In this document: positions 6,592 through 49,200 of the stretch, piece by piece
Position numbering within the stretch: the first letter of the stretch is position 1
Layout of the letters: every line of letters starts with the position of its first letter
Source: a virus
Strand: one strand, 5' to 3'
Length of the DNA: 64,000 nt
IMG/VR virus record: IMGVR_UViG_3300045988_079613
Program-made: the position numbers and the translations under genes
The notes under the pieces: model-generated
The model's database searches: none
Told to the model about the DNA's origin: nothing
What the model saw: the letters and a program-made list of their open reading frames with translations, nothing else

Positions 6592-6670
6592 TGGTCCTCC
6601 CGTCCGGTTCTGCTCCAGATCCTCAACTTTTAGAGAGTTGTGTGCTAAGCATCTCATACACTACAGGAGA
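6592..6670 (-). tRNA. amber-suppressor tRNA, anticodon CUA (likely Gln-derived), CCA encoded
   Basis: Cloverleaf of 76 nt plus CCA. Acceptor TCTCCTG/CGGGAGG (two G-U pairs); D stem GTGT/GCAC. Anticodon arm CAACT-CTCTAAA-AGTTG with the anticodon at 6631-6633. T stem TCTGG/CCGGA; discriminator A followed by CCA at 6592-6594. Confidence 0.75.
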
Positions 6671-15199: not shown

Positions 15200-15690
15200 G
15201 AAGTATATGCATAGTAGTATTTAACAACAATTTATTATGATTAATGGTTAAATGTGAATTTATAGCTAACCGGTTCGTGAGAATAGGTTAGTCTTCAGAA
15301 GATGACAAGCCTGTGGGGCGTAAGTAAGTGCATATCTATACTGTACTAAATACGATAAGATAAGTATAGAAATACTCGTATTTGTGCTTATAATCGTGCG
15401 GACGTAAAAATCAGGTGAGTGATAAGATTAGGTTTGACAGCCTTTTCTGCTTGTACTCTGGAGTAATCCTAAAACATGTGAGAGTCATAGAATAAAACTC
15501 TAACAAGTAATGTTAAAATTTGATTTTCTTTATTAACACAAAGCGTTAAGTGCATTTGAAATCATTTTAGTATTAGTTAAAGTTATGGTATTATAACTTA
15601 AATCTCATTCATTAACAAATGTGTTTCTTACTCTAGAATACCCTAGAGTAACGTCGTCAATTTTATTAACTAACAATTTAAAGCCTATGT
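15200..15690 (+). ncRNA. ORF-free structured island (about 0.5 kb), candidate ncRNA or structured leader
   Basis: No ORF is present and G+C is higher than in the flanks. A pseudoknot-compatible helix pair lies at 15335-15383 and an 8-bp hairpin at 15629-15650. Confidence 0.35.
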
Positions 15691-17058: not shown

Positions 17059-17280
17059 TTAAATTGTTAGTATGGTGGATTCCAATCAACCCAAAAGAAC
17101 TGTAAATATACCAGAACCCTAATGGAAGTTCATAAGAACTAGAGTACAACGGCTATACAACGGCAATCCTATACAGGATAGAAGAAGGATAGGGGTTATC
17201 TACAAAATAAGGTATACAAATATGTAGAACAGTTCTTTTTTTAAATTTAAACTTAGTGTTAATTAATAATAGTATCAATC

Positions 17281-17764: not shown

Positions 17765-18645
17765 AGTCACACAAGGTCCAGGAAAGATACTTGAATAATA
17801 GAGATATTAATTCTATAGAGAATCCGAAGAAAATTGAAAGCAAATGGTGAGGTCCATGTTACATCGGAACCCTATAATAAGCAGCTTCATCCTGAATTAA
17901 CAGGAAACAAACAAATGTACGATAGTGAAAACTATTCAATACTGGAGTTGGACTAGAAAACGTGCCACTGATCAAGTGCCTAAGATCGTGAGGATGTATT
18001 ATAATAATTGCGCAATATATAGTATTGAATCTATACTCAAAGAGTATATTATGCAAATAGCATTCTTATGATATCAAATCGGCAAACATTATAGCAAATG
18101 TTGAGTAGTAATACTTCTGTACTAGTCTATAAATGATCAGTTATCAAAACTTATAAGTAAAATAATTTAAAAGACCAAAGGCTATGTAGGTTTGGTCGCC
18201 TGCATAGCCACAATTGACTGTTAGATCTATGAATCAGTTGTAAGACGAGGGTTCGACTCCCTCATGCTCCACTATTATTCATTGCAGCGGAAGTCATGAC
18301 ATCTGTTACGAGAAACACTTATCCGGTAACCGAATGAATAAGAACATAAGTAGCATCTCACTTGCAAGAGAGAACATGTAGCTACTCACAAGGGGCATTA
18401 TGGTTTTGATTGCAACAATGTGAAGTAGAATAGGTCAATAAGCAGATAACTGGCAATACAAGTTATGTAATGGATTATACACGCTTAGCAGCGTGAGATA
18501 TCCCTAGGGGAGCATACAGTATCCTAGTTAACAACTCTTTATTTAAAGAGAAACTGTTACTAATGACGGGGTTGTGAAATAGATTTTAGCGCTAGAAATA
18601 GTGACAGTCGCCTCATAGTATCTAATAGATATAAAACTAAATGGA
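17765..18645 (+). ncRNA. ORF-free structured island (about 0.9 kb), candidate large ncRNA ending at a tRNA-like gene
   Basis: No plus-strand ORF is present. Long perfect helices include 18180-18190/18199-18209 and 18275-18283/18333-18341. Confidence 0.4.
18180..18271 (+). ncRNA. tRNA 3-prime-half-like module (11-bp hairpin, 6-bp hairpin, canonical T arm, 3-prime acceptor strand)
   Basis: GAGGG-TTCGACT-CCCTC followed by ATGCTCC-A. No complementary 5-prime acceptor strand lies upstream. Confidence 0.3.
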
Positions 18646-32617: not shown

Positions 32618-33358
32618 ATGATTGTATTACCAAAAGAAAAGATAAAAGCCAAGGTAGAAAATCCTAGATTTTTAATACTATTTGGCAAACCAAAAGCTGG
32701 TAAAACTACTTTAGTATCTAGATTAGATAATAATCTAATTATAGACTTAGAAGGAGGATCAGAGTTTTTGGAAGCATTAGCTGTACAAGCTAGATCTGTA
32801 AAGGATTTAGGAGATATAGCTAGTGCTATTAAAGAAGAAATTAAACAAACAGGTAAAAAACCTTATAAGTATATTACTATAGATAATGCTTCTAGATTAG
32901 AAGAAATGTGCATGAGTTTTGCAGTACAATTGTATAAGGCTACTCCAATGGGAAAAGGTTATACCGGTTCTGATGTTAGAACACTGCCAAATGGATCTGG
33001 TTACTTATATTTACAACAAGCTGTAAGAAAAGTAATAGATATGTTTAAAGAACTATGCGATAATCTAATCCTAATTGGTCACTTAAAAGATAAAATGATT
33101 AATAAAGAAGGAGAAGAATTATCTGAAATGTCTCTTGATTTGGTAGGTAAACTTGCAAATATTATATGTGGTGAAGCGGATGCAGTAGGCTATGTATATA
33201 GAAAGAAGAATGAAACTCATATTTCTTTTGAAGGAGGAGATAATTCTGTAAGAGAAGCAAGAGCACCTCATTTAAGAGGAAAAAACATAGTAGTAGCAGA
33301 AAGTGATGCAGATAATGTAATTACTACTTATTGGGACAAAATTTATTTACCTGAATAA
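32618..33358 (+). CDS. AAA_24/Sak4-like recombination ATPase
   Basis: N-terminal P-loop LILFGKPKAGKTTL with an overall RecA-like layout (LILIGHLKD). Confidence 0.6.
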   Translation: MIVLPKEKIKAKVENPRFLILFGKPKAGKTTLVSRLDNNLIIDLEGGSEFLEALAVQARSVKDLGDIASAIKEEIKQTGKKPYKYITIDNASRLEEMCMSFAVQLYKATPMGKGYTGSDVRTLPNGSGYLYLQQAVRKVIDMFKELCDNLILIGHLKDKMINKEGEELSEMSLDLVGKLANIICGEADAVGYVYRKKNETHISFEGGDNSVREARAPHLRGKNIVVAESDADNVITTYWDKIYLPE

Positions 33359-33371
33359 AAATGATTAAGTT

Positions 33372-33974
33372 ATGATTTACAGCACAGAATTAGCAAACAA
33401 AATAGAAACTACAGACGTTTTAAAAAGTAAATACTTAGAAGCAGGTATTCACGAAGACGTACAGCTTGTAGGAGCAAAAGTTGACAAGTCTATTAATGGA
33501 AATATCTTTCTTGAGGTAAAATTTACTAAAGAAGGACAAGATTTAACTCATACAGAATGGGAATCTACTAAGAAACCTGGAGAATCTGATGAAGAATGTC
33601 AAACTAGAGGTAGTAAACAGGTTAAGAGAATTATGCAAATTCTTGAATGTTTCTACCCTAAAGAAGCGCTAGTATTTGCTGGTTCTTCTTATAAAGACTT
33701 TGTTGATTGGGTTGCTATGATGCTAAATGCAGCAAACAAGAATATTTTACTTAGAGTAAAGATAGTATATAATAAAAAGGGATATACTACATTGCCTAAT
33801 TATTGTAAGTTTACTTTTATCGAACCAATGAATCTTCCTGAAGGAGAGAAGAGTAAAATTGCAGAATTGAGTATAGACCAATTTACTAAACCTATAATAG
33901 CAGATGTAGAAACTAAGGATACTAATCCTCTAATGGAAACATCTTCTGATCCAACAGGTGATCTTCCTTTTTAA
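33372..33974 (+). CDS. putative single-stranded DNA-binding or annealing protein
   Basis: Sits in the replication module. The acidic C-terminal tail ends in GDLPF, resembling the SSB D-D-D-I-P-F tip. Confidence 0.4.
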   Translation: MIYSTELANKIETTDVLKSKYLEAGIHEDVQLVGAKVDKSINGNIFLEVKFTKEGQDLTHTEWESTKKPGESDEECQTRGSKQVKRIMQILECFYPKEALVFAGSSYKDFVDWVAMMLNAANKNILLRVKIVYNKKGYTTLPNYCKFTFIEPMNLPEGEKSKIAELSIDQFTKPIIADVETKDTNPLMETSSDPTGDLPF

Positions 33975-34021
33975 AGAAGAAAATAAAATAACAGTAGCTA
34001 CCTAGAGCATAAGCTAGGAAT

Positions 34022-34085
34022 ACGTAGGTTAGTGCACCGCACTATGAAAAATGAGTGATACACAATAGTGCACAACCTACGTTTT
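34022..34085 (+). terminator. long hairpin (15 bp with one bulge) followed by TTT
   Basis: ACGTAGGTT-A-GTGCAC ... GTGCAC-AACCTACGT. Confidence 0.55.
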
Positions 34086-34089
34086 AAAT

Positions 34090-34176
34090 AGGAGTTTCTG
34101 ATATTCAGAAATATGGTATAAATAAGAAAAAGATGTATTTCTCATTTATTATAGAGTTCGAATCTCTATACTCCTA
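34090..34176 (+). ncRNA. tRNA-like element with a 12-bp arm in place of the anticodon arm
   Basis: Acceptor AGGAGTT/TACTCCT (6 bp) and a perfect T arm TAGAG-TTCGAAT-CTCTA. The D position is the palindrome TTTCTGA-TAT-TCAGAAA. The central arm 34118-34149 is 12 bp long with an 8-nt loop. Confidence 0.35.
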
Positions 34177-34191
34177 CTAAAAATATATCAT

Positions 34192-35172
34192 ATGATTTAC
34201 GATACAACGAAAATAATAAAAGATGATGATAATATTACTTTAGATTATATACTTTCTAAAGTAACAGAGTATGATATATATGCTGCGTATATAGGTAATT
34301 TTAAAGTAGGAATGATTTATAATAGTCCATTTCGTAAAGATAGAAACCCATCATTTGGATGTTTCTATAGTAAGACTAGTAAACAATTAATGTTTAAAGA
34401 TCATGGAACTGGAGAATGTGGTAATGTTATTAAATTTGTAAGCATTTATACAGGATTAACAAATTATAATGATATACTTAAGGATATTATTCAGAAACTT
34501 AAAATTACTAAAGATACGCAATTAGTTAGCTCTAAGCAATATATACCGTCAACTGAAACAGTAATTGGTGTAGTACGTCAGAATTTCACTGATACTGACA
34601 TCAATTACTGGAAGCAGTTTAATATTACGGTAGATACTTTAAAGAAGTTTGGAGTAAGTAGTATAAAATACTACCTATGTAATGGCATAGTAAAAAGCAT
34701 TTATAAAGATGAAAATCCAATGTACGCATATAAGGTGTACAATCACTTTAAGATATATAAACCTTTAGCAGACAAATATACGAAATGGCGTAATAATTTA
34801 ACTGAATATGATATTCAGGGATATAAACAATTACCTAAAACTGGGGACATACTTATTATAACAAAGAGTATGAAAGACGTCATGTGTTTATATGAAATGG
34901 GGATACCAGCAATATCTCCTTCTTCAGAGTCAACTTTTATACCCAATAAGGTTGTAGAACAGCTTAAGAAGCGTTTTAAGCGTATTATTATAATGTTTGA
35001 TAGAGATGAAGCTGGAGTTAAATATCTTCGTAAAATGAGCCTTAAAACAGGTTTAGAAGGATTACTAGTCCATAAAAAATTTAAAGCAAAAGATATATCT
35101 GATGCGATTAAAGCAAATGGATTTGAGAAAGTAAAAAAATGGTTATATGAAGAAATAGAAAAAACAAGGTAG
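34192..35172 (+). CDS. DNA primase (Toprim domain)
   Basis: Toprim-like ILIITKSMKDV...PSSE...IIIMFDRDEAG. The N-terminal segment is primase-like. TAG stop with a back-up TAA 6 codons later. Confidence 0.65.
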   Translation: MIYDTTKIIKDDDNITLDYILSKVTEYDIYAAYIGNFKVGMIYNSPFRKDRNPSFGCFYSKTSKQLMFKDHGTGECGNVIKFVSIYTGLTNYNDILKDIIQKLKITKDTQLVSSKQYIPSTETVIGVVRQNFTDTDINYWKQFNITVDTLKKFGVSSIKYYLCNGIVKSIYKDENPMYAYKVYNHFKIYKPLADKYTKWRNNLTEYDIQGYKQLPKTGDILIITKSMKDVMCLYEMGIPAISPSSESTFIPNKVVEQLKKRFKRIIIMFDRDEAGVKYLRKMSLKTGLEGLLVHKKFKAKDISDAIKANGFEKVKKWLYEEIEKTR

Positions 35173-35527
35173 AGTTCGAAACGCAACCCCTAATGAATAT
35201 GAAGGAATTAAATTTCGAAGCAAACTTGAAACCTATACATACAAAAAGCTGAAAGAAGCAAATATCCTAGCAGATTATGAAATGCATAGGTATGAGCTAC
35301 TTCCAGCTTTTACTTTTAACAATAAAAAATATAGAGCAATAACCTATTTACCAGACTTTGTTGGTAAAGGTTTTATAATTGAATGTAAAGGCTTTCCTAA
35401 TGAAGCTTGGCCTTTGCGTGAAAAGCTATTTAACTATTATTTGTACACACATGAGCCTAAGACAGCGTTCTATGTAGTACATACACAGAAACAAGTTGAT
35501 GAGTTAATCAACAAGTTAAAAACATAA
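35147..35527 (+). CDS. DUF1064-type PD-(D/E)XK nuclease (putative Holliday-junction resolvase) with in-frame TAG at codon 4
   Basis: ATG at 35147, TAG at 35156-35158, then NEYEGIKFRSKLE...YLPDF...IIECKG. The track ORF (35282) lacks the conserved N-terminal 45 codons, and no other start exists in that frame. Confidence 0.6.
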
Positions 35528-35529
35528 AA

Positions 35530-36378
35530 ATGAATATTATGGCAGAATTTATTAAGATCGGAAATGAGATTACAGTTAAACCTAAGTTAGAAGGTATTTC
35601 TTATGAACTCATAAGTAACAAAGTATACGATCTAGAGTATGATAGAATGCAAGGTAGATCTTATCTCAAAGAAAATGGAGATTTGAATATGCCAAAGAAA
35701 TTATACAAACTAGAAGAAGATAATAAATTTATTAAACGTGTATTAAGTTATTTTAATTCTGATAATTCTGGAAAGACAACCGGTATATTACTTGCAGGTA
35801 CTAAAGGTACAGGCAAAACAATGCTCTCTAAACGTATTGCCTTAGAAAGTAATTTACCTATTATTATAGTAGCAAACGACTACCCTGCTAATAAACTTAC
35901 TAGTTTCTTTAAACATTTTACTACTCCTGTAGTAGTTATGTTTGATGAGATTGAAAAAAATACTTATTGGTGGGAAACTAAGGATCTGTTAGGATTCTTA
36001 GACGGTGTAGAAGCTACATCTAAAAAACTGGTATTGATGACCTGTAACAAAACAGATCAGATAGACGATAACTTCTTTGATCGTTGTTCACGTGTTCGTT
36101 ATTTTAAAGAATATGAAGCAAACTCTAATTCTGTATTTGTACGCTGTATAGCAGAAGATAAAGGAATAAAGAATATAGATGAAGTTGTGAATTTCATCGT
36201 TGAACATATAGAAGTTAAATCATTTGATAATATTTCAGCATTCTTAGATGAAGTTGTTCTCTTCGAAGATATTCCATTAGACAAATTAGCTAAAGATATG
36301 AATCTTAGCTTAAATGGAGTAATAAGAACAGGAACTAATATTTCTGATGAGGATGAAATAAATGAAGTTCTATTCTAA
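35530..36378 (+). CDS. AAA+ ATPase
   Basis: Walker A LLAGTKGTGKTML and Walker B VVVMFDEIEK. Confidence 0.7.
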   Translation: MNIMAEFIKIGNEITVKPKLEGISYELISNKVYDLEYDRMQGRSYLKENGDLNMPKKLYKLEEDNKFIKRVLSYFNSDNSGKTTGILLAGTKGTGKTMLSKRIALESNLPIIIVANDYPANKLTSFFKHFTTPVVVMFDEIEKNTYWWETKDLLGFLDGVEATSKKLVLMTCNKTDQIDDNFFDRCSRVRYFKEYEANSNSVFVRCIAEDKGIKNIDEVVNFIVEHIEVKSFDNISAFLDEVVLFEDIPLDKLAKDMNLSLNGVIRTGTNISDEDEINEVLF

Positions 36379-36429
36379 TGATACTATTTTATTCAATACT
36401 TATTTATAAACTTACTAAATTCTTACAAT

Positions 36430-37305
36430 ATGAAAATATGTGGAATTAGTGATATACATGGGAATCTTTATAATGAGATTCCTAAATGTGATGTATTGTG
36501 CATTTGTGGTGATATAGTTCCTTTAAACATTCAGAGAGATATGAAAGAATCTGATAAATGGTTTACTGAAGACTTTACTAAATGGATAAATAATTTACCG
36601 TGTAATAAAGTAATAATAGTACCTGGGAATCATGATTTCTATCTTGAAAGAATGTATATTGAAGGAACATGGGACGTAGTTAAAGCACTTATGAGAGCTA
36701 TAACTAATGATAAAGTAGAAATGCTTATTGATGAGTCTTATACTTATAAAGGAGTTAGTTTCTACGGAACGCCATGGATAAACCCTATTTTGTTTCAGCA
36801 AGGAAGGTGGGCATTTGAATTACAAGATAATGAACTATATAATAAGATACCAAAATGTGATATACTAATTACTCATGATAATCCTAATTATAATAACGCA
36901 TTAGGTTATTATACTTTTGGTAAAGCCAAAGTTCATTTATTTGGACATTGGCATGAAGGAGTATCTAATAAAAATCACAGAAAATATAACTGTTCTATAC
37001 TAGATAATAGTTATAACTTTAAAAAGGATTTAAATATAGTAACATTAGATTTTATGACACAAGAAGGAATTGCATTAAAAACTGAATTTATAGAGTATTT
37101 AAGACTTGTTATAAAAGACTATTTTAAACTAAATGGAAATAAACCTCTTACTCTAGAAGAGTGTAATACTTTTCTTGATATGCAGAAAGAGTTTATAGAA
37201 GCTCTAGAAGAAGACAATAACGAATGGGATACTTCTGGGAGTTTCTGTAGTGATTATAATGAGGAAGAAGATACTCCTAAATTAGAATTAGAAGAAGCAG
37301 CATGA
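36430..37305 (+). CDS. calcineurin-like metallophosphoesterase
   Basis: SDIHGN, CGDIV, GNHD and GHWHEG motifs. Confidence 0.75.
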   Translation: MKICGISDIHGNLYNEIPKCDVLCICGDIVPLNIQRDMKESDKWFTEDFTKWINNLPCNKVIIVPGNHDFYLERMYIEGTWDVVKALMRAITNDKVEMLIDESYTYKGVSFYGTPWINPILFQQGRWAFELQDNELYNKIPKCDILITHDNPNYNNALGYYTFGKAKVHLFGHWHEGVSNKNHRKYNCSILDNSYNFKKDLNIVTLDFMTQEGIALKTEFIEYLRLVIKDYFKLNGNKPLTLEECNTFLDMQKEFIEALEEDNNEWDTSGSFCSDYNEEEDTPKLELEEAA

Positions 37306-38273
37306 AAATAGAAATTCCGTATTATGAAGATAACACGCGAATATCAAATTCAGCAATAGGGTGGTTCTTGAAAAAAGGACCACGTTACCTCAAGGATATG
37401 CTTGACGGTAAAGAAGAAGGTATAAGTGGAAAATATCTTGAAAAAGGTACTATGATACACATGTACTTACTTCAGCCAGATGAATTCTGGCATAATTATA
37501 TGATTATTGACTATGAGAAGCCTAAAACAGCACAGCAGATTGCATTTTGTGAACGTTATTTTCATTCTACAGAATTATTAGAAGAAGATAAATTACTAGA
37601 TGCATATAAATCTGCATACTCTGGCAATAATATGTCTAAAGATGCAATGTTAAAGAAAGCAAAAGAGTTACAACTCAAGTTTGCAGAGTATATTGAATTT
37701 CTAGACAAAAATCAAACATTTACAGTAATATCATTTGCTGATTTAAATATGCTTAAACGAATAGAAGAGAATATTAATAATCACAAAAAAGCAAAAGATT
37801 TACTTACAAATAATCCTGGTTGGGACTGTAATAATGAGTTTCATATAAACTGGGAATCAGAAAAACAGAAGATATCTTGTAAGTCCTTATTAGACAGAGT
37901 TAAAATTGATTTTGTTAATAAGAAGATAATCCTTATAGACTTAAAAACTACAGCAGATGTTTATAATTTTAAGCACTCTGTAGAAGAATATGACTACTAT
38001 AGACAAATTGCATTCTATATTTTAGCTCTTACATGGTATATGTCTGATCTAGGATATAATATAGAGGAGTTTGACTTAGAAGCATACATTATTGCAATTC
38101 AAAGCAATGGTAATAATGAAGTAAGAGTATTTAATATGTTAAACGAAAAAGAGTTATTGGACCGTAAAGACCTAATAGCAGATACTTTAACAGAAATTTC
38201 ATACCATTATCAGACAGGAAATTGGGACCATACTCGTGAATATTACGAAGGAAATGGAACTGAAGAACTATAA
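37302..38273 (+). CDS. PD-(D/E)XK (RecB/Cas4-like) nuclease
   Basis: GTMIHMYLL, LIDLKTT and YYRQIAFY motifs. Confidence 0.55.
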   Translation: MKIEIPYYEDNTRISNSAIGWFLKKGPRYLKDMLDGKEEGISGKYLEKGTMIHMYLLQPDEFWHNYMIIDYEKPKTAQQIAFCERYFHSTELLEEDKLLDAYKSAYSGNNMSKDAMLKKAKELQLKFAEYIEFLDKNQTFTVISFADLNMLKRIEENINNHKKAKDLLTNNPGWDCNNEFHINWESEKQKISCKSLLDRVKIDFVNKKIILIDLKTTADVYNFKHSVEEYDYYRQIAFYILALTWYMSDLGYNIEEFDLEAYIIAIQSNGNNEVRVFNMLNEKELLDRKDLIADTLTEISYHYQTGNWDHTREYYEGNGTEEL

Positions 38274-38421
38274 AAATCTAAAACAATTAAAAGGCTCTGA
38301 TGAGAGCGCTATTGAAGCTATGTATAATAATATTATTGTTGATAATACTGAAGAAGAAGCAAAGTATTCTGCAGTAGAAGTAGATGAAGGGACTTGTGTA
38401 GAAGATGGAATTGACGCCTGA
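38236..38421 (+). CDS. hypothetical acidic protein (start may be 38254)
   Basis: Track ORF overlapping the previous gene. Confidence 0.45.
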   Translation: MNITKEMELKNYKNLKQLKGSDESAIEAMYNNIIVDNTEEEAKYSAVEVDEGTCVEDGIDA

Positions 38422-38824
38422 AGTAATTCTACTATCTCCTAGAGTATTAAGTAAAAGGAAACCCTTAGAACATAAGTCATTTAAAGGACTATATACTAGT
38501 CTTTACGACGAATATTCTAAGGGTTTTATTTATTTAGACTACGTATTCAACAATATTGAAGAAGAAAAAGATATCGAAGGTTGGCTTACTTGTGAAAAAA
38601 CGTATTTTAATAAGAGAATTTTCAATATTAATTCAAGTAAACATACTATATTTACTTTAAAATCTGAAGATAGTAGAGAACTAGAAGATTATAAACAAAC
38701 TGGTAATCTAGGTTTTGGAATAACAGATTGGTATCCTATCTTTCAGTTTTGGGGAGATAGAACAAAAGATATAAAAGATACTGTTTATAATACGATAACA
38801 GATTTAAATAATAGGTTTGAATAA
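38405..38824 (+). CDS. hypothetical protein (139 aa)
   Basis: Track ORF and the last plus-strand gene. Confidence 0.65.
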   Translation: MELTPEVILLSPRVLSKRKPLEHKSFKGLYTSLYDEYSKGFIYLDYVFNNIEEEKDIEGWLTCEKTYFNKRIFNINSSKHTIFTLKSEDSRELEDYKQTGNLGFGITDWYPIFQFWGDRTKDIKDTVYNTITDLNNRFE

Positions 38825-38828
38825 GAAA

Positions 38829-38850
38829 AGGGCTGTTGTGAAACAGCCCT
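38829..38850. terminator. bidirectional terminator between convergent modules
   Basis: AGGGCTGTT-GTGA-AACAGCCCT, a 9-bp stem with A-runs upstream and T-runs downstream. Confidence 0.7.
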
Positions 38851-38856
38851 ATCTTT

Positions 38857-41800
38857 TTATTCTCCAAGTATCTATTTTTTGTAATAATTTCTTTTACTTT
38901 GTATATCTTTTAATTCCTATATATTCCTAAATGGAGTAAGTTTTAAAAGGTTGCGCTCTTGTTCAGTCCATCCTTTATAAGCACCTCGCTTAATAGTAGC
39001 ATCATAATAAGTTTCTTTTAACCACCAGTACTTAATCCTTTCATATAATAAACTAACAGGATTAGAGAATAATTCAAACATATTACTAACATAGTCTGTA
39101 ATAGCAGAAGGTGACTTGATAATAGATGCCATATCCAGAAGATTATATGGAGCTAATGTTTCAAATTGCGATCTTATTATAGTATATGCCAGTAGTTGTT
39201 TAATGATGTTTTTCTTGTCGTCGTCCGCTGACTGCTCTAATAGCGGTCTAAGAAACCAAACAAGGCCTCCATATAATATACCTTCAAAGACCAATCTAGC
39301 CAAATTTTCTCTTACTAGAGGATCTTCTTGATTAAGTCTTTTATAAGTCTTAATTACGTTTTCATTGTTTTCTATAGCATTATCAAATAATCTTACTACA
39401 GTTTTGAATACTCCTTCTCTGTATCTCTAAGCTTGATAATCCCATTGTCTTGTCATTAACCATCTCTCTTGTAAAACAACCGGTAAATATTGTCTGTGCA
39501 TCATAACAAACTATCCTGCCCAATTAGCCAAAATCACAGGCTTTTGTAAAGAAGTAAGCTACCCATCGGCTGATTGTGCTAGAGTTTTGGCAATATAAGC
39601 TATTTTATTCATAGCCTCATCTACTGCTTTCTAGTTTGTTTTATCTTTTGCTACCATTTTACCACCTACAAATTCTACAGCATCATAGAATGAAGTTTTA
39701 TTTCCTAGATTCCAATCCATGTAATCGCCGGGAGCATAAGTAGGAAGTTTATGTTTTCTTTTATATTCCTCTCTACTCATAAAAATTTTTTTACCGCCTT
39801 CTTCTACTAGCTTAAAATTATGCATAACAGAAGCAAGAATCTATCCTTTTACTACATGATCCATTAATGAATATGGACCGAATGCCCAATGTTTAGTGAC
39901 AGCATTAACTAATTGCATTCTGTTTGTAGCATTTGGATTAATTTCTGCACCTATTTCGAAAAGTTCCATAGCTTGAGTTATGAATGTTTTTTTCCTAGAA
40001 ACTCCCAGAACGTTCGATATAGCAAAAAATGAATCTGCTACAATATCAAAGAACGCATGACCAGCATCTATAGGATTGTAATATCTTTGTATTAACATAT
40101 TTGTAATATGCTAATGTAAAGCTGTATAAGCCCCTGTTAACGCACAAGCAAGATTTAAACCTAGATTTCTAAGAGTACCTAACATCTTAAGTATAGATAA
40201 CATTTTTGTAATGTTAATTTCTCTTGGTTTACTTATATCATAAGTAAGTCCAAAAACATTGCCTTTATACGGAATCAAGCCTAATACTTTTCCAGTAGGG
40301 TTATCTCCATATCTTACACTAACGTCTTGAGTTTTTATATCATACAAATTCATGTCTATAAAGTTTTTAACGAATTTGTATGTATTACTGTTTCCGGTTT
40401 TTTCCTCTCCTCTTTTGTTAGTGTATTTAATACCTTGTACGTATCTTTTTAATATTTCTATTCTAGGTTGTATTTGAGTTTTATTTTTCCAACTTTCACA
40501 CGACTTATAGAACTATATTACTGAACCAACTAAATCCGCAGTTAAATACTCAGGATTATCTAATCTTTTAAGATAATATTGAGGTATTACATTTAATCTT
40601 TCTCCATTAGGTTTAGTGAGAGCTCTATTAAAACCAACATCATCGTTTCTACATGATATAAGATCTTTCCAATAATCAATAAACCCTTTAAATGCTCCAG
40701 ATATATAATTTCTTTTCCAACCTGCATGTATATATTTTAACAAACTACCAGATTTCTGTGGAACCCTATAAGGATAAGTCTTATGCAGGTTAGTTAACTT
40801 ATCGTTAGATTCTTTTATAGTATCTAAGATAGCTTGTCTAAGATTCTTTAGAGCCTCATTATTCATTACTTTATGATAATTCTTACTATTATCATAAGAC
40901 TCAACTATTTTACCATCTTCTATTACTTTAGATTTTGGTATCCAGTATTCATTCTATAAGTCTGGGTACTTTTCCTAAGTCTCATAGTAAGATTTGTTAT
41001 AGAATTTGGATTCTTTAGATACCTCTAGCCAGTTACTATTAGGAGCATATTCTATCAAACTTTTATCCTTTGGTACTACTTTTGTATACCATGCTTTTGG
41101 ATTTTTAATGTCATAAGCATTAGCTTTTAGCCACATTTCAGCAGATTCTGGATCTTCTAATACTACATTATAGTAATACTTTTTAAGATCCCTATACCAC
41201 TGTTCTGTTGGTATTGTCTCTGCAATGTCCTCAAATTTGGCATCTCCTTCTTGTATTTCAACTTTTTTGTTTTTTCTAATGATAGACATCTATCTAGACA
41301 ATCTTTGTATAGCAGCTTTAGAATTAGCTGACATATGATCTATGTCTATATTACCCGTCATATCATCCCTATGTTGATTTAATATAGATCTGCGCCTTTC
41401 TTGTAGTTCTGCGTATACAGGACCGTAATATTTTTTTTCTAGCTTTTCTAGTTTCTGATAAAACTCATCTTTATAGCGTACTTGAGAATTTCGTTCTAAC
41501 CATTTCTGTTTTTGTTCTTTTGTCAGATTTGGATCAGCCATAATTTTAGCTTTTTCCTCCTCATATGCTTTACTATTCTTAGTCATAGTAAGACCTTCAG
41601 ATAACTTCTTATTCAGTTCCTATAATTCTTCAGCTATTTTAAGCTTCTCTCCTTGCTTTTTAATACCTGTAGTATCATATAAACTAGCCAGTTGTTTTTT
41701 CTCAAGTAAATAAGCTCTATATGTGTTATATTCCTTATCGCTAAGTCTATCTAGATGTGCTATACCAGCAGAATCTCTAGTTTTATCTACTAGCTGTCGT

Positions 41801-43278
41801 ATTTTTAATTGAATCTCCTCTCTAGCTGCTACCGTACCTTCACTTAAATGATTAAACATATCATAATACTCTCTAGTATATCTTCTATCTGTATGTTTAG
41901 ATAACCATTCATTTCTTCTCTTATTATACTCAATACGCAGCTATCTATTTTCTGGAGCTTTTATATCAGTAAGATCTACACCTAATTCTGATGCTATTTT
42001 TTTCATAGCATCTGCATAGTTCTTTTCAAATTTACCATAGTTTCTAGCTCGTACTATATAACCAGTAGTATTACCATCATCATCTACTTCAAATAACATT
42101 CTCTGATTATATTTTCCAGCTTTACTAAGTAAATCCTCAAGTTTTCTTATAACCTGGTAAGTATTTCTATTTGTTTCTTCTTCTGCTTTATTGATTAAGT
42201 AGAATATTGTCTTAATAGAATCATTGTTTATCTTATCACCAGCACCTATATAGTATGTAAGCCAAGCTATATCTCTCTAAGATGGTGATGGATTAGACAT
42301 TGAATAGTCATAGATAGTTGAGGACTTTACTTCTAGACCTACTTGCTTTAAATTCTATCTAGCATTATCAGCTATTTTACCTTTTACTATAGAATAACCA
42401 TCAGTAAGCATAGCTTGGTAGTCTTTAGCTCTTTTAAGCATTCTATCAAGTATATATTCACCACTACTATCTTTTCCTATTATTTCTCTGTAGTTGTCTT
42501 TATATATTAATTGACTTACTATCTCATCTACTATATCATTATAGAAACCAAAGAAGTTCTGATCTAGATCATTCAACTTAGTATCATCTATGTCCAGTCC
42601 TTTTCTACGGACATTAACGAGATATTCGAAGGTAGGTCGCAATTCAAATCTTAAATTAGCTAAAAATTCATTAATGTTATCTAAATCTGATTTAAGACCT
42701 TCACTAATATTTGCAATTAGCCATTCTGATTCTTTTTTTATCTTAGTTCTAAGTTCTGCGTCAGGATTAGTATTTACTTTTAATCTTGACTATAAACCTT
42801 TCAGTATCTTTACATTTATGTCTCTTAAAATACTATCTAGTTCTTCCTTTTCTTTAGAATTATAATTATCTTTTGTCTATTCTAATCCTATTTCTAAGTC
42901 ATTGTAAGCCTAATCAACGCGTTCTCTTAAGTCTTTATCTGTGTCAAAAAAAGACTTAGCTTCTTCACTTAAAGAATCTTGTGATTGATACTCTAACACC
43001 TACTAAGCAGTTGGTTCTATAGTTAAATCTTTATAAGTATTCTTAAAACCAATTAAAAAAACTTTAGATTTTTCCCTGATAGCCATTTTAGAATCATTGT
43101 TAAAATGACTTAAAAGATCCTAATATAACTTAGAATCTTTACCTTCACTATCAAACTCTAAGCCATAACCATTATTTTCAGATAAGACATAATAGGCAGC
43201 ATCATAGCTACCTAATATGTCAGTATACTCTTTTAACTATGCCTTTATTTCAGGCAATTCTGTTCTTAAACACGTCAT
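38857..43278 (-). CDS. large virion-associated protein (about 1473 codons), TAG-recoded
   Basis: ATG at 43276-43278 overlaps the upstream stop (ATGA). Only TAG interrupts the frame. The first non-TAG stop is TAA at 38857-38859; the last TAGs are at 38917 and 38872. Confidence 0.7.
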
Positions 43279-46200
43279 GATTTCTTACAATGTTTTTTAC
43301 GTTTTTTACCTTCTTCTTTAAGGTTATTCAGATACTCATTTACTTCTGTAATACCTGTTTCAGAGTCCTACAAGGATCCTATAATATCATCTACCAACTC
43401 TGTAGAATCAAAATAGGATTCGTCAGGCATTGCATAATCTTCTCCAAATGTATCATTAGCTTCTTCAATTCCTCCTAACATTTGATCTATTTCACCAAAA
43501 TCTTCTATTGTAGTAGAATTATCCGAAGTATCTACAAAACTTAAAGAAGGATCGCTATCAATTGATTCTGGATCAGATTGTATTCCACTATCTCCAAATG
43601 ATTCAATTAATTCATTTTGAAGTTCTTGATCTAAATTGGAATACTCCTAAGTTTTACCAACTTCAATATTAGAATACTACTCATCCTTAACAAACTGAGA
43701 ATCTTTAATAGTTTTAATATATTTATCTACTATACTATCTATATCCTCAACGGTTTGTTTGATCATTGTGTCTGTAAACTTGTTATTCTCGAATGCAGAT
43801 TGTTCTGTACCATTTTTATATAACTCATATATAGAACTTGCTCCATTATTGAAACCTAACTTAGGTATAGCAACATATACAATGCCGATAGTATTACCGT
43901 CTGCATCTACTATTTGTCCAGATCTCTGGTATAATACCGTATTAGTAGATCTAGAACCTCCTATTTTTACAAACTTATTATTCTTATTTATGTCTGATCT
44001 ACCTAATGCAATAAATACAGTATTCACAGAACTATTAGTACGGTCTTTAGAACTAGCTAGATACATTGTATTAGATTTAGATTCTTCTCCATATCTAACA
44101 TCTACTTTTGGTATATACAATGGAACTACATCATTATCTGCCCAGTAATTTCTTACCATATTTAAATAGATAGAATCTGTTAGTTCTTCTAAAGTAGAAG
44201 CATCCTAAATTATATCTATATCATTCCTTATCAGTTTGTTCATTGCATCTTTTATAGAATCTAAATATCCAATCTATTGTTTGTATTCCATTGGAACTAC
44301 ATTAAAGAATGAATTAGGAGTTCTATTATCATAACTAGTAACAAATGCATATTTTACCAAATCTTCTGCCAACTCTCTGACCATTTCGTCATCATTTGTA
44401 AGAAGATCGTAAAATGCTGACCTAAGTCTATCTTCATAATATCTCGAATTATTTAAAGAAGAAGTAGCAGTAACTATTTTGTTAGCTTTGTTTTTATTAG
44501 ATATGGTAATACCTTGTAGATAATTTAATAAATCGTTAGTAATATTGCCCTATTCATCTACTAAAGTAACTAAATTAGGATCCTATTTATTCTTTCTAAT
44601 ATAATTCTTGACAGCATTAAGTCTGCTAGCTATATTGTCCTTACCAAATGCCATACTGTTTAACTGTTCATCAGACAATCTAATATCAGTACCAGCTATC
44701 ACTACTTTAGCACGAATTATACTCTCTACTTTCTCATTTATTTTTTTCACTAATTCTTTATTACTAGTAGGTCTATATAACTATATAGAAAGAGAACCAT
44801 TAACTTGCTATGGATAATTACCACCTCTTAAATTATGCATTATACTCGTGAATATAGTCTTATAACCATTGGTAGCTCCAAATACTTGAGTTTTAAGTAT
44901 ATTATTAGCTAAATCCATAGCATATACTAATTTCTTATTTAAGAACGTCTTATTAAAGTAGTCCTCAAGCCCATTAAGATCCTCTCTACCTTCAGTATCA
45001 GGAGTAGAGAAGTCCTGTTGATGGTCTTTTATAAATGTCTGATATGAATTATAAAAGTTCTATAATTGAGTAATGTTATTACCATACTTTTTAGTATCTA
45101 TCTGAGAACGTTGAACTAAGTCTGCCATAGTTTGAGCATCTCCACTTAATTCATTATAAGCTGTAAGTACGATTAACTACATTTTAATATCCTGTGGAGT
45201 TACCTAGCCTCTTCTAAATGCATCTAATGTACGAGACAATCTATCCTTGTCAAATGCTAATTTTTTATCTTCATCTGTTATCTTAAGAATAGATTCCTTA
45301 TAAGACTATGATATAGGATAATTATTTAACATTTTAGTATATTTGTCTATCAGTCTACTAATTATAGTATTATCATACTACTGTTTAGATCCAATAGCAC
45401 CATTATTAGCAATCTTAATATTAGCAAATTCCTTTAATATAGGTTGAGCTAAGAAGAAGAACGTATTTTCTCCCTTTCCACCACGTAACAATAAACTAGT
45501 CATATTATATGTTACTTGATTCACATTAAGTTTAATAATGTAAGGATCTTTAGCTACATCGACATGAGCATTAATCATTGCAGATAACCAGTCTAATATT
45601 TTGAAACCATCCTGTCCATTGATTTCATCAAATTGACCAAGACCATAAATATTGTTATGTGAAAATTTCATATGTAGATGTGTGGCTTGAGTCAAGCAAT
45701 GGTTAGTAGAGTTAAGAGCAAAAGGTGCTATACCAGCTTTACCCCAAGTATATTCCATCTTTCTATACTCTTGGAACGATGGCATTAATTCATACATATA
45801 ATCTGCTTCTTTCATCTCATCTACACTTACTTTTGGAAGTATTTCCTTAGTAAGGATACCGGTTAATGTATCAATAGATGCTCTAGTTTCAGACAATGTT
45901 TTTTCATCAGATATTACTAGCGTATAACTATCTAACAGTTTATTTATCAGAGCTCCTTTAGATTGGTCAGAATAGGTTTTAGCATCTTCTTTCCAAGTAT
46001 ATCTCTGATGCGTATTAGGATCATACGAATATGTAGCTATATACAATTTATCAATATCAAAGTCAGAACCAGTCATAGCAGTAAATTCATCAGGTACTAC
46101 TATGGTATCTCCGGTCTATGCTGGTAAAACATCAGCTACTATGAAAGAGAAAGTAGATGACAAACCCTGAGTAGGTATACGATAACCTATACCATATGGA

Positions 46201-49200
46201 TCACTTTGACTACCTATTATATTATTATCCAGCAACCATTTTCTTATTGCTACGTAACCCTATTCCTATACATCCTATGGTACTACATCTCTAAAGAAGT
46301 TAGTACTAAGCATTACTTCCATACTACCTCTTTTAGGATCGAAACTAAGTTTTTTACCATCATTAAAAGGTCTAGTATCTTCGTTAGCATCTGTTATTAC
46401 ATCATTAGCTTTAAAACCAAATGATGCCATTTGAATAGCAGAACCTCCTGGAGTATTTACGTCTATTACTTCTTTATTTATTAAAGAAATTATTTTACTT
46501 TCAATCCAATTACGAACGCTAAGTGCTGCTATAGGAGCTTTAAAGTTACCCTTACTGTCAAGTTTTAATGCATCTATTATTTCTTGAGACATTCCATTTC
46601 CAGTAGCTTCTTCTACTAAATATCTAGACAAAGCAGCTTTATCTATAGAACCGTCTAATTTGAAGAATCTACCTTTCTTTTTCTTTCCATTGATAGTTCC
46701 TCCTTTTAAAGAAGTATAACCTAACGTAGACAATGCTTTAATACAACCAAATATATCCTTTTTTATTTGAGATCCAGATACATGCTTTCCTTTGTTATGA
46801 CCATAGTATCTATCATCTACTACATTACCCATACCAATTTTTATCGCTTGAGTACCGAATGATCTATCTGTATGTTCATGTGGATCTGTATTAAGCTGCA
46901 ATCTTAACTGTTTAATATCTTGAATTCTAGTTGTTAATCCATCATTAAGTCTTTCAACGGCATTACCATTCGTAACTATCATAGTAGATGGCTTATTTAA
47001 GCCTTCTTTATTGAAACTTGTATTTCTGTTGTCATTATAGGCTTTGAACTTATCTTGAGGAGCACCGACCTTAACTGCAGATTCAAACAATAACATGTCT
47101 ATCACACCCAATTCTTCATTATTCATTCTGTCATATAAATACTTATTATCCGCTTTGGCTAGTATCTTAAACATAGGGAATAATGCCATTTTATCGAATG
47201 TAGGTACATTTAATTTAGCTACAGAATCATAGTAATCACCAAAATACATCATCTTTAATGGTTTTATTGATGCTCTTAGAGCTTTACTATACAATTCTGG
47301 ATTACTAAGAACATCATCTGAAGATTCTAGTATATTATATGCTTCTTCTATCTCAGGAGACCATTCTCCTAAAGCTTGCATAATTCTCTTATACATAGCT
47401 GGTCTGATATATACAGCAGCATCTGCTTGATTTATATTGCCACTATTATTCTCATCATCATATGCATAAGGATTTGCAGCTTTCTCAGACTGTTTATCAA
47501 CAAATTTCTTGGAATCATCAGATAAACTGTCATAAGATTCTTGCATTCTATCTTCATTCTTAGTAGCATCAAATAGCTATTTATCTGTCATGTCTGGATG
47601 CTCTTTCTGTAACATAGTTCTTATGAAAGATGCTCTAAATATCTATTTCAATGAATCGTGATATTCAGACCCTATATTGTTATCCTACATAACAGCACTA
47701 ACGAATTTAGTATCATTTCGTGGATCTCCTTCTCCCCAGTATGTTCTGAGATTAGTACCAGTAGATAATACAGAAGACAAACGTTTGATTTTATCCACAT
47801 CTCTCTGGAATACACCTACTTCTTTGCTGGACTTCCACTTATAAAAAGCAGGATCTCCAACAAAACACTTTTCTACTTCTTCTATAGATATTGCGCAATT
47901 AGTTACAAAATTAGCTATTATACTATATATAGCATCATTAGAATTTATATCGTCATAAGATGATTGAAACTATGCTTTATATTTTGCATATATATTAGTA
48001 GGAAGATTACCAGAAGTAAGTTTACCAGATGAATCCCTAGATATTACTCCTAGTTTAATAGCTTCTTCTACTTCTTGATCTACTCTTCTTAATAACATTC
48101 TATTAAGAATATCATGCATACCAGCTACATCTTCTATGAACAATTTTCTGATATTGTCTAAAGTTTCATTAATTAACTTTGGATCATTGCTTTCTTCTGC
48201 AAATTGTAATAGATCATTTAATGAACGTATTTCTCCATCAGGCATTATTATTTGGTTAAAATATCTGAATCTACCACCATTTCCGCCTGGTTTCATTTTA
48301 CCATCTTTCCCTATTTTGCCGTGATAGTTAGAATAATATCTCGATCTTCCTTGTTCTACGTCAGACTTTGTATTATAATATTCAGTAATAGCATTAAATT
48401 CGTCTACAAAATAATTATAGAATATATTTAAAGTATTTTTACTAAATCTAAAATCAACTGGTACTTCTATTGTTTCCCCTTCAAAATTTGTAGTTGTAAC
48501 AACAGAATGTAGAAAATCTTTAGGAACATCTATTCCTTCTATGCTATACCATGTCTTTTTATCAGACATTGTAGGTAAAACTAATCTATTATTTTCAGAT
48601 AAAGTTAACTTTGTAATATAATCCTCCAATGGAGTTATACCAAAATAATCCCTACTAGTATCTGTTAACTCATCATTAATAGCTAATAAAGTATGCAGTT
48701 TTAATTTAGGTTTATTTTTTCCTAGCAGTGCTTTTACAATAAGACTATTCTTACAATAAGGAGTATTGTTTAAGTTCTGCAATTTTCCATATGCGTTAGT
48801 GTTTAACCATCTGATCTAATCGGACATATAGTTATTCTATGTGATAGGATATACTAAGCTACCATCTGCCCCAGTTACACTAAATTCTTCTGGAGTAGGA
48901 TGTGTTTCTCCATATGCAATAGCCATTAAGTTCAATACGCTGTTTGGATTATAATAATTAAATATCTTATCTGCACTAATAGTCACTCCTCTAAATTTAG
49001 TAACTAAAGTTTTATTAGCCGCCATTGCTCTAATATTCTCATATACAGAGTTTCTTATAGAATTTATAGCTGCTCCATTTTTAGAGTCTGTATTCTTAGT
49101 TCTGAATATCAAGTTAAAAGCGTCTACACCATCTATTCCAGTAGATTCCTTAGTACTTATACTACCTAATAAATAAGTAAGAGCATCATTGTCAAAATTG

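What the first reader, a model, noticed from the sequence alone, without database searches (positions are those of the whole stretch)
35147..35527. Resolvase-like nuclease in the standard-code replication module is gated by a TAG at codon 4
The track ORF starts at 35282. However, the same frame is open for 45 more upstream codons that encode the conserved N-terminal part of a DUF1064-type nuclease (NEYEGIKFRSKLETYTYKKL). The only start codon in that frame is ATG at 35147. It is followed by AAG AAA TAG (35156-35158) and then the open frame. Full-length protein should therefore appear only after the amber suppressor is active. That would be a plausible timer delaying junction resolution until packaging.
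Basis: partly seen in the sequence, partly recalled or inferred. Interest (0 to 1): 0.7.

Follow-up and report, generated by a model that had tools for sequence, protein, structure and literature searches.

The report
Amber-gated resolvase gene in crAss-like phage
A gut crAss-like phage that reads the TAG stop codon as glutamine in its late genes keeps a single TAG at codon 4 of its DNA-junction-cutting nuclease gene. That gene sits among otherwise TAG-free replication genes, so the enzyme can probably be made only once the phage's own suppressor tRNA is working.

Summary
ATG 35147, AAG, AAA, TAG (35156-58) and then an open frame to TAA 35525-27 encode a 126-codon DUF1064 / T7-endonuclease-I-like Holliday junction resolvase. 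The standard-code ORF from ATG 35282 lacks the first 45 codons, including the conserved FRSKLE glutamate.

The window is a TAG-recoded crAss-like phage (Crassvirales, Suoliviridae, Buchavirus). Late genes on the minus strand carry up to 78 TAGs each, and the plus-strand replication block is otherwise TAG-free.

Among 100 distinct relatives of this gene, 91 have a TAG in the short basic tail between the ATG and the conserved core, at differing positions within codons 2-10. TAG density is 8.4% per codon in the tail and 0.27% in the body. The region upstream of 35282 evolves as coding sequence (574 synonymous against 216 non-synonymous differences). A non-canonical tRNA(CUA) lies at 6592-6670 (-).

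Suppressor-dependent translation is therefore well supported. The idea of a timer until packaging is plausible but inferred, and some TAG-recoded relatives (Oafivirinae, the cr4_1 group) lack the TAG.

The general principle is published, and RefSeq relatives already annotate this CDS through the TAG. What is new is the conserved, N-proximal, gene-specific gate.

The parts
35147..35527 (+). Full-length DUF1064 / T7-endo-I-like Holliday junction resolvase gene. It has 126 codons, with TAG at codon 4 read as Gln, and a TAA stop at 35525-27.
   Evidence: RefSeq relatives annotate the equivalent CDS.
35147..35149 (+). ATG start codon. It is the only ATG/GTG/TTG in this frame upstream of 35282, and it lies inside the last codons of the primase gene, in the +1 frame.
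35156..35158 (+). In-frame TAG (codon 4), the proposed amber gate.
   Evidence: It is conserved in 16 of 16 distinct sequences of this tail type, and a tail TAG is present in 91 of 100 relatives.
35159..35281 (+). N-terminal part of the enzyme that is missing from the standard-code ORF. It comprises the rest of the basic tail (KKQGRV), the conserved NATPNEY motif, a beta-hairpin, and helix alpha1 with FRSKLE (Glu28 at 35228-30).
   Evidence: Pfam DUF1064 and Phage_endo_I profiles cover it. Residues here are invariant in alignment A4. Synonymous to non-synonymous differences are 574/216 in frame, against 60/789 and 57/762 in the other frames. AF2 model, pLDDT 87.7.
35282..35284 (+). Internal ATG (Met46), the start of the 81-aa standard-code ORF. 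It is probably not a real start.
   Evidence: This position is Thr, Gln or Lys in the cr56_1, cr52_1 and cr4_1 types. The product would lack Glu28.
35354..35389 (+). Core nuclease motif PDF...IECK: Asp70 (35354-56), Glu79 (35381-83) and Lys81 (35387-89).
   Evidence: Invariant D66, E75 and K77 in alignment A4 numbering. A weak alignment to T7 endonuclease I (3cae) matches PDF and ExK.
34192..35172 (+). DNA primase gene (Toprim / CHC2 zinc finger). It ends in TAG at 35170-72 and has a back-up TAA at 35191-93. Its last 26 bases overlap the resolvase start and the gate codon.
6592..6670 (-). Candidate phage suppressor tRNA(CUA). It has anticodon loop CUCUAAA, an encoded CCA end and an unusual T-loop (AGCAGAA). 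It sits just upstream, in the direction of transcription, of ORF 6017-6574 and of the TAG-rich terminase, portal and later genes.
   Evidence: ARAGORN finds it only at a relaxed threshold. Its position is syntenic with the canonical tRNA(CUA) of cr60_1 and cr56_1. The cloverleaf is 100% paired, with 5 covarying pairs among 4 variants.

Best explanation
The gene encodes a small PD-(D/E)xK Holliday junction / branched-DNA resolvase. It belongs to the DUF1064 family and resembles T7 endonuclease I. Translation starts at ATG 35147.

The fourth codon is TAG. A host ribosome with only release factor 1 stops there after Met-Lys-Lys, so no enzyme is made. When the phage tRNA(CUA) is present, TAG is read as glutamine and the full 126-residue enzyme is produced.

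The gene appears to be co-transcribed with TAG-free replication genes (primase, ATPase, phosphoesterase, exonuclease). The single early TAG therefore separates its translation from theirs. The resolvase is made only, or mainly, after the phage has switched to the TAG=Gln code, together with the packaging and structural genes. That is when branched DNA has to be resolved, and after the period when a junction- and fork-cutting nuclease could damage replication.

Shown here: the gene structure, family membership, translation of the N-terminal region, TAG equivalent to Gln, the recoded late genes, the presence of a tRNA(CUA), and strong conservation of a TAG in the tail.

Inferred: that the suppressor is temporally regulated, that the gate delays rather than merely lowers expression, and the biological rationale.
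For: - The window is TAG-recoded on the minus strand: 4487-, 1473- and 1040-codon ORFs carry 78, 23 and 21 TAGs. The plus block is TAG-free, and five of its genes end in TAG.
- Family membership: DUF1064 E=7e-11, PHROG 190 E=3.6e-14, weak Phage_endo_I.
- The N-terminal region is coding: 574 synonymous against 216 non-synonymous differences, compared with 60/789 and 57/762 in the other frames. There is no start codon after the TAG.
- TAG equals Gln: at the conserved H[TN]QK site the codon is TAG in 20, CAG in 49 and CAA in 30 sequences. Proteomics in crAss-like phages supports this (PMC9523058).
- Tail TAG: 91 of 100 distinct genes carry one, at differing positions within codons 2-10 (5 to 15 codons before the core). 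Density is 8.4% per codon, against 0.27% in the body and about 1.5% in late genes. TAG/(TAG+CAR) is 0.63 in the tail and 0.14 in the body.
- In about 85 loci the neighbouring primase, exonuclease and AAA_24 genes have zero TAGs.
- A tRNA(CUA) lies at 6592-6670 (-) and shows covariation.
- There is no terminator-like site between the primase and 38829.
- The published model holds that recoding blocks premature translation of late genes (10.1101/2021.08.26.457843; PMC7886860). The main role of T4 endonuclease VII is debranching at packaging, and it cleaves stalled forks (PMC3016281).
Against: - There are no expression data, so the timing of tRNA(CUA) and of this gene is unknown.
- TAG-recoded relatives without any TAG in this gene exist: Oafivirinae cr273_1, cr131_1, cr130_1, cr7_1 and Dulem virus 42, and the cr4_1 group. 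cr6_1 has its TAG at codon 33.
- Rare TAGs occur in helicase (9 of 76), polymerase (2 of 71) and phosphoesterase (1 of 59) genes of some relatives. The replication block is therefore not absolutely closed to TAG.
- In several tail types the TAG lies in a stretch that overlaps the upstream gene, which adds constraint unrelated to gating.
- The sequences are related, so the counts are not independent events.
- The window's tRNA(CUA) is non-canonical and has not been shown to be functional.
Confidence: 0.6

Rival explanations
1. Dose limiter rather than timer. The suppressor competes with release factor 1 whenever the gene is translated. A single early TAG then simply keeps the amount of a potentially toxic nuclease low, with no role in timing.
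For: There is a single TAG in the window's gene and mostly one to three in relatives. Resolvases are needed in small amounts (general knowledge). Occasional TAGs in helicase and polymerase genes of relatives suggest some suppression while replication genes are being expressed.
Against: Late genes with up to 78 TAGs require almost complete suppression once the switch is on. In that state one TAG would reduce yield very little. Five plus-block genes use TAG as their stop codon, and the block otherwise avoids TAG. That pattern fits a state with little or no suppression.
Confidence: 0.2
2. Neutral codon use. The gene is translated only when the suppressor is present for some other reason, and TAG is just one of three Gln codons in a Gln-containing basic tail. 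No gate has been selected.
For: Tails of standard-code and TAG-free relatives also contain Gln (MKQRKTKRKKTTNQKV, MKKQGGRV, KKQGKV). TAG and CAR interchange inside the gene. Some recoded clades have no TAG at all in this gene.
Against: TAG share among Gln codons is 0.63 in the tail, 0.14 in the body and roughly 0.35-0.4 in late genes. No tail type is seen with its TAG replaced by CAR, whereas the internal site flips within clades that are at least 88% identical. The TAG sits at several different positions, including lineages that have CAA at the 'KKQG' site plus a separate TAG upstream, as in the window.
Confidence: 0.12
3. The real product does not need the TAG to be read. It could be the 81-aa protein from ATG 35282. 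It could come from initiation at a non-canonical codon after the TAG. Or it could be a primase-resolvase fusion made by a +1 frameshift in the A-rich overlap.
For: ATG 35282 opens a standard-code ORF. The resolvase frame is +1 relative to the primase, and the overlap contains an A6 run.
Against: - The region upstream of 35282 is under purifying selection in this frame from at least codon 10.
- It contains the invariant FRSKLE.
- ATG 35282 is not conserved.
- No ATG, GTG, TTG, CTG or ATN codon lies between the TAG and codon 20.
- In cr56_1 the gene is separated from the primase by a 51-nt spacer. In other types a roughly 100-aa ORF intervenes. Both arrangements still have ATG followed by TAG.
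Confidence: 0.04
4. The gene is a pseudogene, or the TAG is an assembly error.
For: There is an in-frame stop at codon 4 under the standard code.
Against: The same arrangement appears in more than 100 independently assembled contigs with otherwise intact, conserved genes.
Confidence: 0.01

Closest known systems
Stop-codon (TAG to Gln, genetic code 15) recoding of late genes in crAss-like and other gut phages (Ivanova 2014; Yutin 2021, PMC7886860; Borges/Peters 2021-22, 10.1101/2021.08.26.457843 and PMC9523058)
   Same: The phage group is the same and so is the codon reassignment. A phage tRNA(CUA) is present. The genome splits into an early block free of TAG and late genes rich in TAG. The proposed logic is also the same: in-frame stops block translation until the code switch.
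   Different: The published descriptions concern blocks of structural and lysis genes with many TAGs. Here a single gene inside the TAG-free replication block carries the gate, usually as one TAG. That TAG is specifically kept within the first ten or so codons while the surrounding tail sequence turns over. The papers I searched (PMC7886860, 10.1101/2021.08.26.457843, 10.64898/2026.08.21.746148) do not mention the resolvase.
RefSeq annotation of 'Holliday junction resolvase' in Buchavirus and Blohavirus genomes (cr60_1 YP_010112429, cr109_1 YP_010112509, cr113_1 YP_010112833, cr53_1 YP_010112223, cr56_1 YP_010112291)
   Same: These are orthologous genes, 80-95% identical, annotated from the same ATG through the same TAG.
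   Different: The annotation results from translating whole genomes with TAG=Q. It makes no statement about the position, conservation or regulatory meaning of the TAG.
T7 endonuclease I (gp3) and the DUF1064 family (Pfam PF06356; predicted PD-(D/E)xK nucleases, PMC1189080)
   Same: The motif order is the same: FRSxLE ... PDF ... ExK. Both are small proteins with a basic N-terminal tail, and both are phage-encoded. The match to DUF1064 is above the Pfam cut-off.
   Different: Similarity to T7 endonuclease I itself is weak (Pfam Phage_endo_I E=1e-3, below its cut-off; PDB 3cae E=0.36). Junction cleavage has not been tested for this protein.
T4 endonuclease VII (gene 49)
   Same: It is functionally analogous: a phage junction resolvase whose main role is debranching DNA at packaging, and which can cleave stalled forks (PMC3016281). 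From my own memory of Barth et al. 1988 (Genetics), not checked here, full-length gp49 is made mainly from late transcripts, and a shorter nested product comes from an internal start. That would parallel delaying the full-length enzyme by translational means.
   Different: The fold is unrelated (His-Cys box / H-N-H-like). Regulation is by mRNA structure and promoters, not by a recoded stop codon.

Membership tests
DUF1064 (PF06356), PD-(D/E)xK nuclease clan | Match to the family profile above the curated cut-off | tested here: met
   43 bits against a cut-off of 24.7, E=7e-11, covering profile positions 10-100 of 117. The precomputed PF06356 assignment is present on all 120 listed homologues.
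DUF1064 (PF06356), PD-(D/E)xK nuclease clan | Catalytic signature: E (helix alpha1) ... D ... E-x-K | tested here: met
   Glu28 (FRSKLE), Asp70 (PDF), Glu79 and Lys81 (IECK) are all invariant in the 18-sequence alignment A4.
DUF1064 (PF06356), PD-(D/E)xK nuclease clan | Alpha-beta-beta-beta-alpha-beta core fold of PD-(D/E)xK nucleases | tested here: inconclusive
   The AF2 model has pLDDT 87.7 and shows helix 22-33, a beta-sheet and helices. The top Foldseek PDB hits are PD-(D/E)xK enzymes (Cas4-family ACE1, PvuRts1I, Bax1, VRR_NUC, TnsA), but all have E>0.1.
Holliday junction resolvase (functional class; T7 endonuclease I-like) | Structure-specific cleavage of four-way junctions | not testable with these tools
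   Only annotation-level support is available: PHROG 190 'Holliday junction resolvase' E=3.6e-14 and Pfam Phage_endo_I at 19.2 bits, below its cut-off of 29.1.
TAG to Gln recoded (code 15) phage genes dependent on a phage suppressor tRNA | The genome uses TAG as a sense codon in conserved late genes | tested here: met
   Reading TAG as sense turns 16 fragments (longest 434 aa) into 10 ORFs of up to 4489 aa on the minus strand. TerL has 18 TAGs and the portal gene 13.
TAG to Gln recoded (code 15) phage genes dependent on a phage suppressor tRNA | The TAG in this gene aligns with Gln codons in homologues | tested here: met
   At the internal site H[TN]QK the codon is TAG in 20, CAG in 49 and CAA in 30 sequences. 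The tail TAG of the KKK*G types aligns with CAA of KKQG in the window and in the cr4_1 type.
TAG to Gln recoded (code 15) phage genes dependent on a phage suppressor tRNA | A phage-encoded tRNA with anticodon CUA | tested here: met
   Window 6592-6670 (-): found by relaxed ARAGORN, syntenic with the canonical tRNA(CUA) of cr60_1 and cr56_1, and supported by covariation. It is not detected by default ARAGORN or Rfam. Its function and the identity of the charged amino acid are untested.
TAG to Gln recoded (code 15) phage genes dependent on a phage suppressor tRNA | Temporal code switch: TAG acts as stop early and as Gln late | not testable with these tools
   The evidence is indirect. The plus block avoids in-frame TAG and uses TAG as the stop codon in 5 genes. 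The published model and proteomics are in PMC9523058.

The most novel reading that the evidence does not exclude
In TAG-recoded Suoliviridae, selection keeps an amber codon within the first ten or so codons of the resolvase gene as a gene-specific translational lock. The code switch is then used not only block-wise for late operons. It also works codon by codon, to pull one hazardous enzyme out of an early or middle operon and tie its synthesis to the packaging phase. The very early position would ensure that no partial polypeptide of a probably domain-swapped dimeric nuclease is made in the off state. The gene would also serve as a natural single-codon reporter for the time of the code switch.
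Probability: 0.45. Interest if true: 0.6.

Novelty: new member of a known kind. Interest (0 to 1): 0.5.

Why it matters
Why gut phages change their genetic code part-way through infection is an open question. The leading idea is translational timing of late genes, and it rests mostly on the block-wise distribution of recoded stops. A single, positionally conserved TAG in one nuclease gene, inside an otherwise TAG-free replication operon, is a sharper and directly testable case. A TAG-to-CAG change, or a reporter fused after codon 4, would read out when and how completely the switch happens. It would also show whether premature resolvase is harmful.

There is a practical point for annotation. 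Standard-code gene callers truncate this enzyme to a catalytically incomplete 81-residue ORF. Default tRNA finders miss the window's suppressor tRNA. This bears on reports of recoded Suoliviridae 'without a suppressor'.

Tried and rejected
- Downstream or non-canonical initiation was rejected. No start-type codon lies between the TAG and the region under purifying selection.
- The 81-aa ORF from 35282 as the real product was rejected. Its ATG is not conserved and it lacks Glu28.
- A +1 frameshift primase-resolvase fusion was rejected. The overlap is not conserved (cr56_1 has a 51-nt spacer and other types have an intervening ORF), yet ATG followed by TAG persists.
- A read-around of the TAG by frameshifting was rejected on reading the sequence. 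The ATG, the TAG and the DUF1064 frame are the same frame.
- I first read the full-length homologues with Gln in the tail in the protein collection as TAG-free relatives. Look-up of their DNA showed TAG at those positions, so they add no independent information on codon identity.
- The Foldseek search of the AF2 model gave only weak PD-(D/E)xK hits. A sequence search of the PDB gave only a marginal T7 endonuclease I hit.
- The sigma-70 promoter scan was uninformative: 37 sites found against 37.1 expected. Bacteroidota-type promoters are not covered by the tool.
- The N-terminal extension of ORF 38300-38824 (3 TAGs) was examined as a possible second gated gene. Its 'protein' sequence varies too freely between relatives to decide whether it is coding.
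Full report
**1. Checking the observation**

The sequence reads ATG (35147-49), AAG, AAA, TAG (35156-58), AAA, AAA, CAA, GGT, and continues open to TAA at 35525-27. Under the standard code, the first ATG/GTG/TTG after the TAG is ATG 35282, which gives the 81-aa ORF 35282..35527.

The upstream gene (34192..35172) is a Toprim / CHC2 primase. It ends in TAG at 35170-72, in the frame one base behind the resolvase frame. The resolvase ATG and its TAG therefore lie inside the last primase codons (...TAT GAA GAA ATA GAA AAA...).

**2. The genome**

Reading TAG as sense fuses the fragmented minus-strand ORFs into ten long ones of up to 4489 codons. Reading TGA as sense does nothing.

- ORFs 440-2956, 2959-6033, 38857-43278, 43275-56738, 56750-58423, 58425-60677 and 60680-63802 (all minus strand) carry 8 to 78 in-frame TAGs each.
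- The plus-strand block 11948-38824 has essentially none, and five of its genes end in TAG.

The closest records are crAss-like phages of the Suoliviridae, Loutivirinae, genus Buchavirus. cr56_1 is 92.9% identical over 33000-38500, and cr60_1, cr109_1 and cr113_1 also match. This is the published situation for 'delta-group' crAss-like phages. TAG is reassigned to glutamine mostly in late genes (PMC7886860). Proteomics has confirmed this in crAss-like phages (PMC9523058). The proposed purpose is to prevent premature translation of late genes (10.1101/2021.08.26.457843).

**3. The gene**

The protein after the TAG matches Pfam DUF1064 (E=7e-11, above the cut-off) from its residue 13 to profile position 10. 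It also matches T7 'Phage_endo_I' weakly and PHROG 190 'Holliday junction resolvase' (E=3.6e-14).

DUF1064 was predicted long ago to be a PD-(D/E)xK nuclease family related to T7 endonuclease I and TnsA (PMC1189080). The motifs FRSKLE (Glu28), PDF (Asp70) and IECK (Glu79, Lys81) are invariant in an alignment of 18 relatives.

An AlphaFold model (pLDDT 87.7) puts two short strands and helix alpha1 (FRSKLE...KKLKE) in the part encoded upstream of 35282. A Foldseek search against the PDB returns PD-(D/E)xK nucleases first, but none is significant.

The 81-aa ORF would therefore lack the first catalytic glutamate and part of the fold. By my recollection, this glutamate corresponds to E20 of T7 endonuclease I. 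That equivalence was not verified here beyond the Pfam profile match.

**4. Whether the upstream region is translated**

Among 55 distinct versions of codons 10-45, codon differences from the window are 574 synonymous and 216 non-synonymous. The non-synonymous changes are concentrated at five variable positions. The same DNA read in the other two frames gives 60/789 and 57/762. The region is therefore coding in this frame from at least codon 10.

Between the TAG and codon 10 the codons are AAA AAA CAA GGT AGA, and none can start translation. Met46 (35282) is Thr, Gln or Lys in other lineages.

Homologues in standard-code phages all include the N-terminal region and start with a short basic tail. 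These are Boorivirinae cr50_1 and cr1_1, Uncouvirinae cr118_1, Steigviridae cr108_1 and crAss001.

**5. TAG is read as glutamine in this gene**

At the conserved Gln of H[TN]QK[QE]V, the codon is TAG in 20, CAG in 49 and CAA in 30 of 100 distinct sequences. It flips within clades that are at least 88% identical. cr60_1 has three TAGs in the gene.

RefSeq already annotates the orthologues in cr60_1, cr109_1, cr113_1, cr53_1 and cr56_1 as 'Holliday junction resolvase' from the same ATG through the TAG. The large protein collection lists them with Q at that position. I confirmed that the DNA there is TAG.

**6. The new element: the position of the TAG is conserved, and the sequence around it is not**

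I collected about 200 loci from IMG/VR, GenBank phages and Logan assemblies. They contain 108 distinct gene sequences and 35 different N-terminal tails.

Tail variants carrying a TAG include:
- MKK*KKQGRV (the window)
- MT*RKRNKPSESKI
- MKR*RKKKEGKV
- MRRKK*LNSKV
- MKQKKK*GRV and MEQKKK*GKV
- MKRKKK*STGKV
- MKKN*KK*SKV
- MRQKKSIA*KGKV
- M*KN*KKKVPSKGRV
- MKSV*NKKV
- MKRLTKKKG*KKV and MKPKNKKK*TKGRV

The TAG lies 5 to 15 codons before the conserved core. This holds in genes that overlap the primase, in genes that overlap another small ORF, and in the stand-alone genes of the cr56_1 type.

Among the 100 sequences at least 60% identical to the window's core:
- 91 have a tail TAG, and only 22 have any TAG in the 115-codon body.
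- TAG density is 8.4% per codon in the tail and 0.27% in the body. In late genes it is about 1.5%.
- TAG makes up 63% of Gln-type codons in the tail and 14% in the body.

No tail type occurs with its TAG replaced by CAG or CAA, although exactly that replacement is common at the internal site. The window itself has CAA at the 'KKQG' position, where other lineages have TAG, and carries its own TAG three codons upstream. MKKN*KK*SKV has both.

Across about 85 loci the neighbouring genes are almost free of TAG:
- primase, exonuclease, AAA_24 gene, gene 33372 and ATPase: none
- helicase: 9 of 76
- polymerase: 2 of 71
- phosphoesterase: 1 of 59

These counts are not phylogenetically independent. Even so, the pattern is hard to reconcile with neutral codon use.

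**7. The suppressor**

Default ARAGORN and the Rfam gathering-threshold scan find no tRNA in the window. cr56_1 and cr60_1 have a canonical tRNA(CUA) just upstream, in the direction of transcription, of the terminase region.

At the syntenic place the window has a divergent 79-nt tRNA(CUA) at 6592-6670 (-). It has anticodon loop CUCUAAA, an encoded CCA and an odd T-loop, and it is found only with relaxed ARAGORN settings. Nine IMG/VR contigs carry it. Four distinct variants keep every cloverleaf pair, with five compensatory pairs. Its activity and the identity of its charged amino acid are untested.

**8. Mechanism and its limits**

The structural part of the model is well supported. Translation starts at 35147, and the full-length enzyme requires decoding of TAG by the suppressor.

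The regulatory part is inference. Several observations support it:
- Five plus-block genes use TAG as their stop codon.
- The block otherwise avoids TAG.
- No terminator-like site separates the resolvase from the primase or the downstream genes.

These points suggest an operon translated in a state where TAG still means stop. The resolvase would then be switched on only with the late genes. Late genes with up to 78 TAGs imply nearly complete suppression after the switch, so one TAG acts more like an on/off gate than a throttle.

The rationale is borrowed from T4. Endonuclease VII acts mainly to debranch DNA at packaging, and it cleaves stalled forks (PMC3016281).

Several points count against a general rule:
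- TAG-recoded Oafivirinae (cr273_1, cr131_1, cr130_1, cr7_1, Dulem virus 42) and the cr4_1 group have no TAG in the gene.
- cr6_1 has its TAG at codon 33.

**9. Novelty**

The code switch, its proposed role and even the CDS annotation through this TAG all exist already. What I did not find in the papers searched is any mention of the resolvase. Nor is there any mention of a single, N-proximal, positionally maintained TAG in a gene embedded in the standard-code block. I therefore file it as a new member of a known kind, of moderate interest, and valuable mainly as a clean experimental handle on the code switch.

Noticed in passing
window 6592-6670 (-): The suppressor tRNA(CUA) is non-canonical, with T-loop AGCAGAA, a long D-loop and an encoded CCA. 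Default ARAGORN and Rfam miss it, yet it shows compensatory changes in four variants. This bears on reports of TAG-recoded Suoliviridae 'without a suppressor tRNA'.
   Followed up: partly
window 6679-6781 (-): A 103-nt tRNA-like element lies directly upstream of the tRNA(CUA). It has an acceptor stem and a canonical T-arm, but a 32-nt insertion replaces a normal anticodon arm. The insertion contains a covarying stem (GACG/CGTC) and a loop with CCCUAAAG. The element is almost identical in cr60_1, although the adjacent suppressor genes differ completely, and it is absent in cr56_1. Its function is unknown; it could be an intron-containing tRNA or a regulator.
   Followed up: partly
window 18213-18496 (+) (ARAGORN 18182-18587): This is a permuted tmRNA-like RNA. 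It scores 43.2 bits against Rfam RF04321 (E=4e-7), just under the gathering score of 47. ARAGORN predicts the tag peptide GNTSYVMDYTRLAA. RefSeq relatives annotate 'tmRNA, SsrA' at the syntenic position. A phage-encoded tmRNA in a stop-codon-recoding phage may be worth a separate look.
   Followed up: partly
window 15291-15416, 17082-17239, 17890-17987 (+): A Hatchet ribozyme (92.9 bits), RAGATH-9 (139.5 bits) and RAGATH-20 (103.5 bits) are clustered in the early plus-strand region. All three score above Rfam gathering thresholds.
   Followed up: no
window 38300-38824 (+): This is the last ORF of the plus block. The standard ORF starts at 38405, but the frame is open upstream to ATG 38300 through three TAGs, giving a hydrophobic N-terminal extension (MRALLKLCIIILLLIIL...). 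TAGs are present in relatives too, but the extension varies a lot, so it is unclear whether it is coding. It is possibly a second TAG-gated gene.
   Followed up: partly
window 14748-15197, 19211-19669, 19656-20039, 22693-23082, 34192-35172 (+): Five plus-block genes end in TAG, each with a TAA or TGA 1 to 9 codons further on. After the code switch these proteins would gain short C-terminal extensions.
   Followed up: no
window 43275-56738 (-): A single 4487-codon ORF carries 78 in-frame TAGs. Completing it requires near-complete suppression.
   Followed up: no
window 38829-38850: A perfect 9-bp GC-rich hairpin has T-runs on both strands. It is a likely bidirectional terminator between the convergent replication block and the late block.
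   Followed up: no
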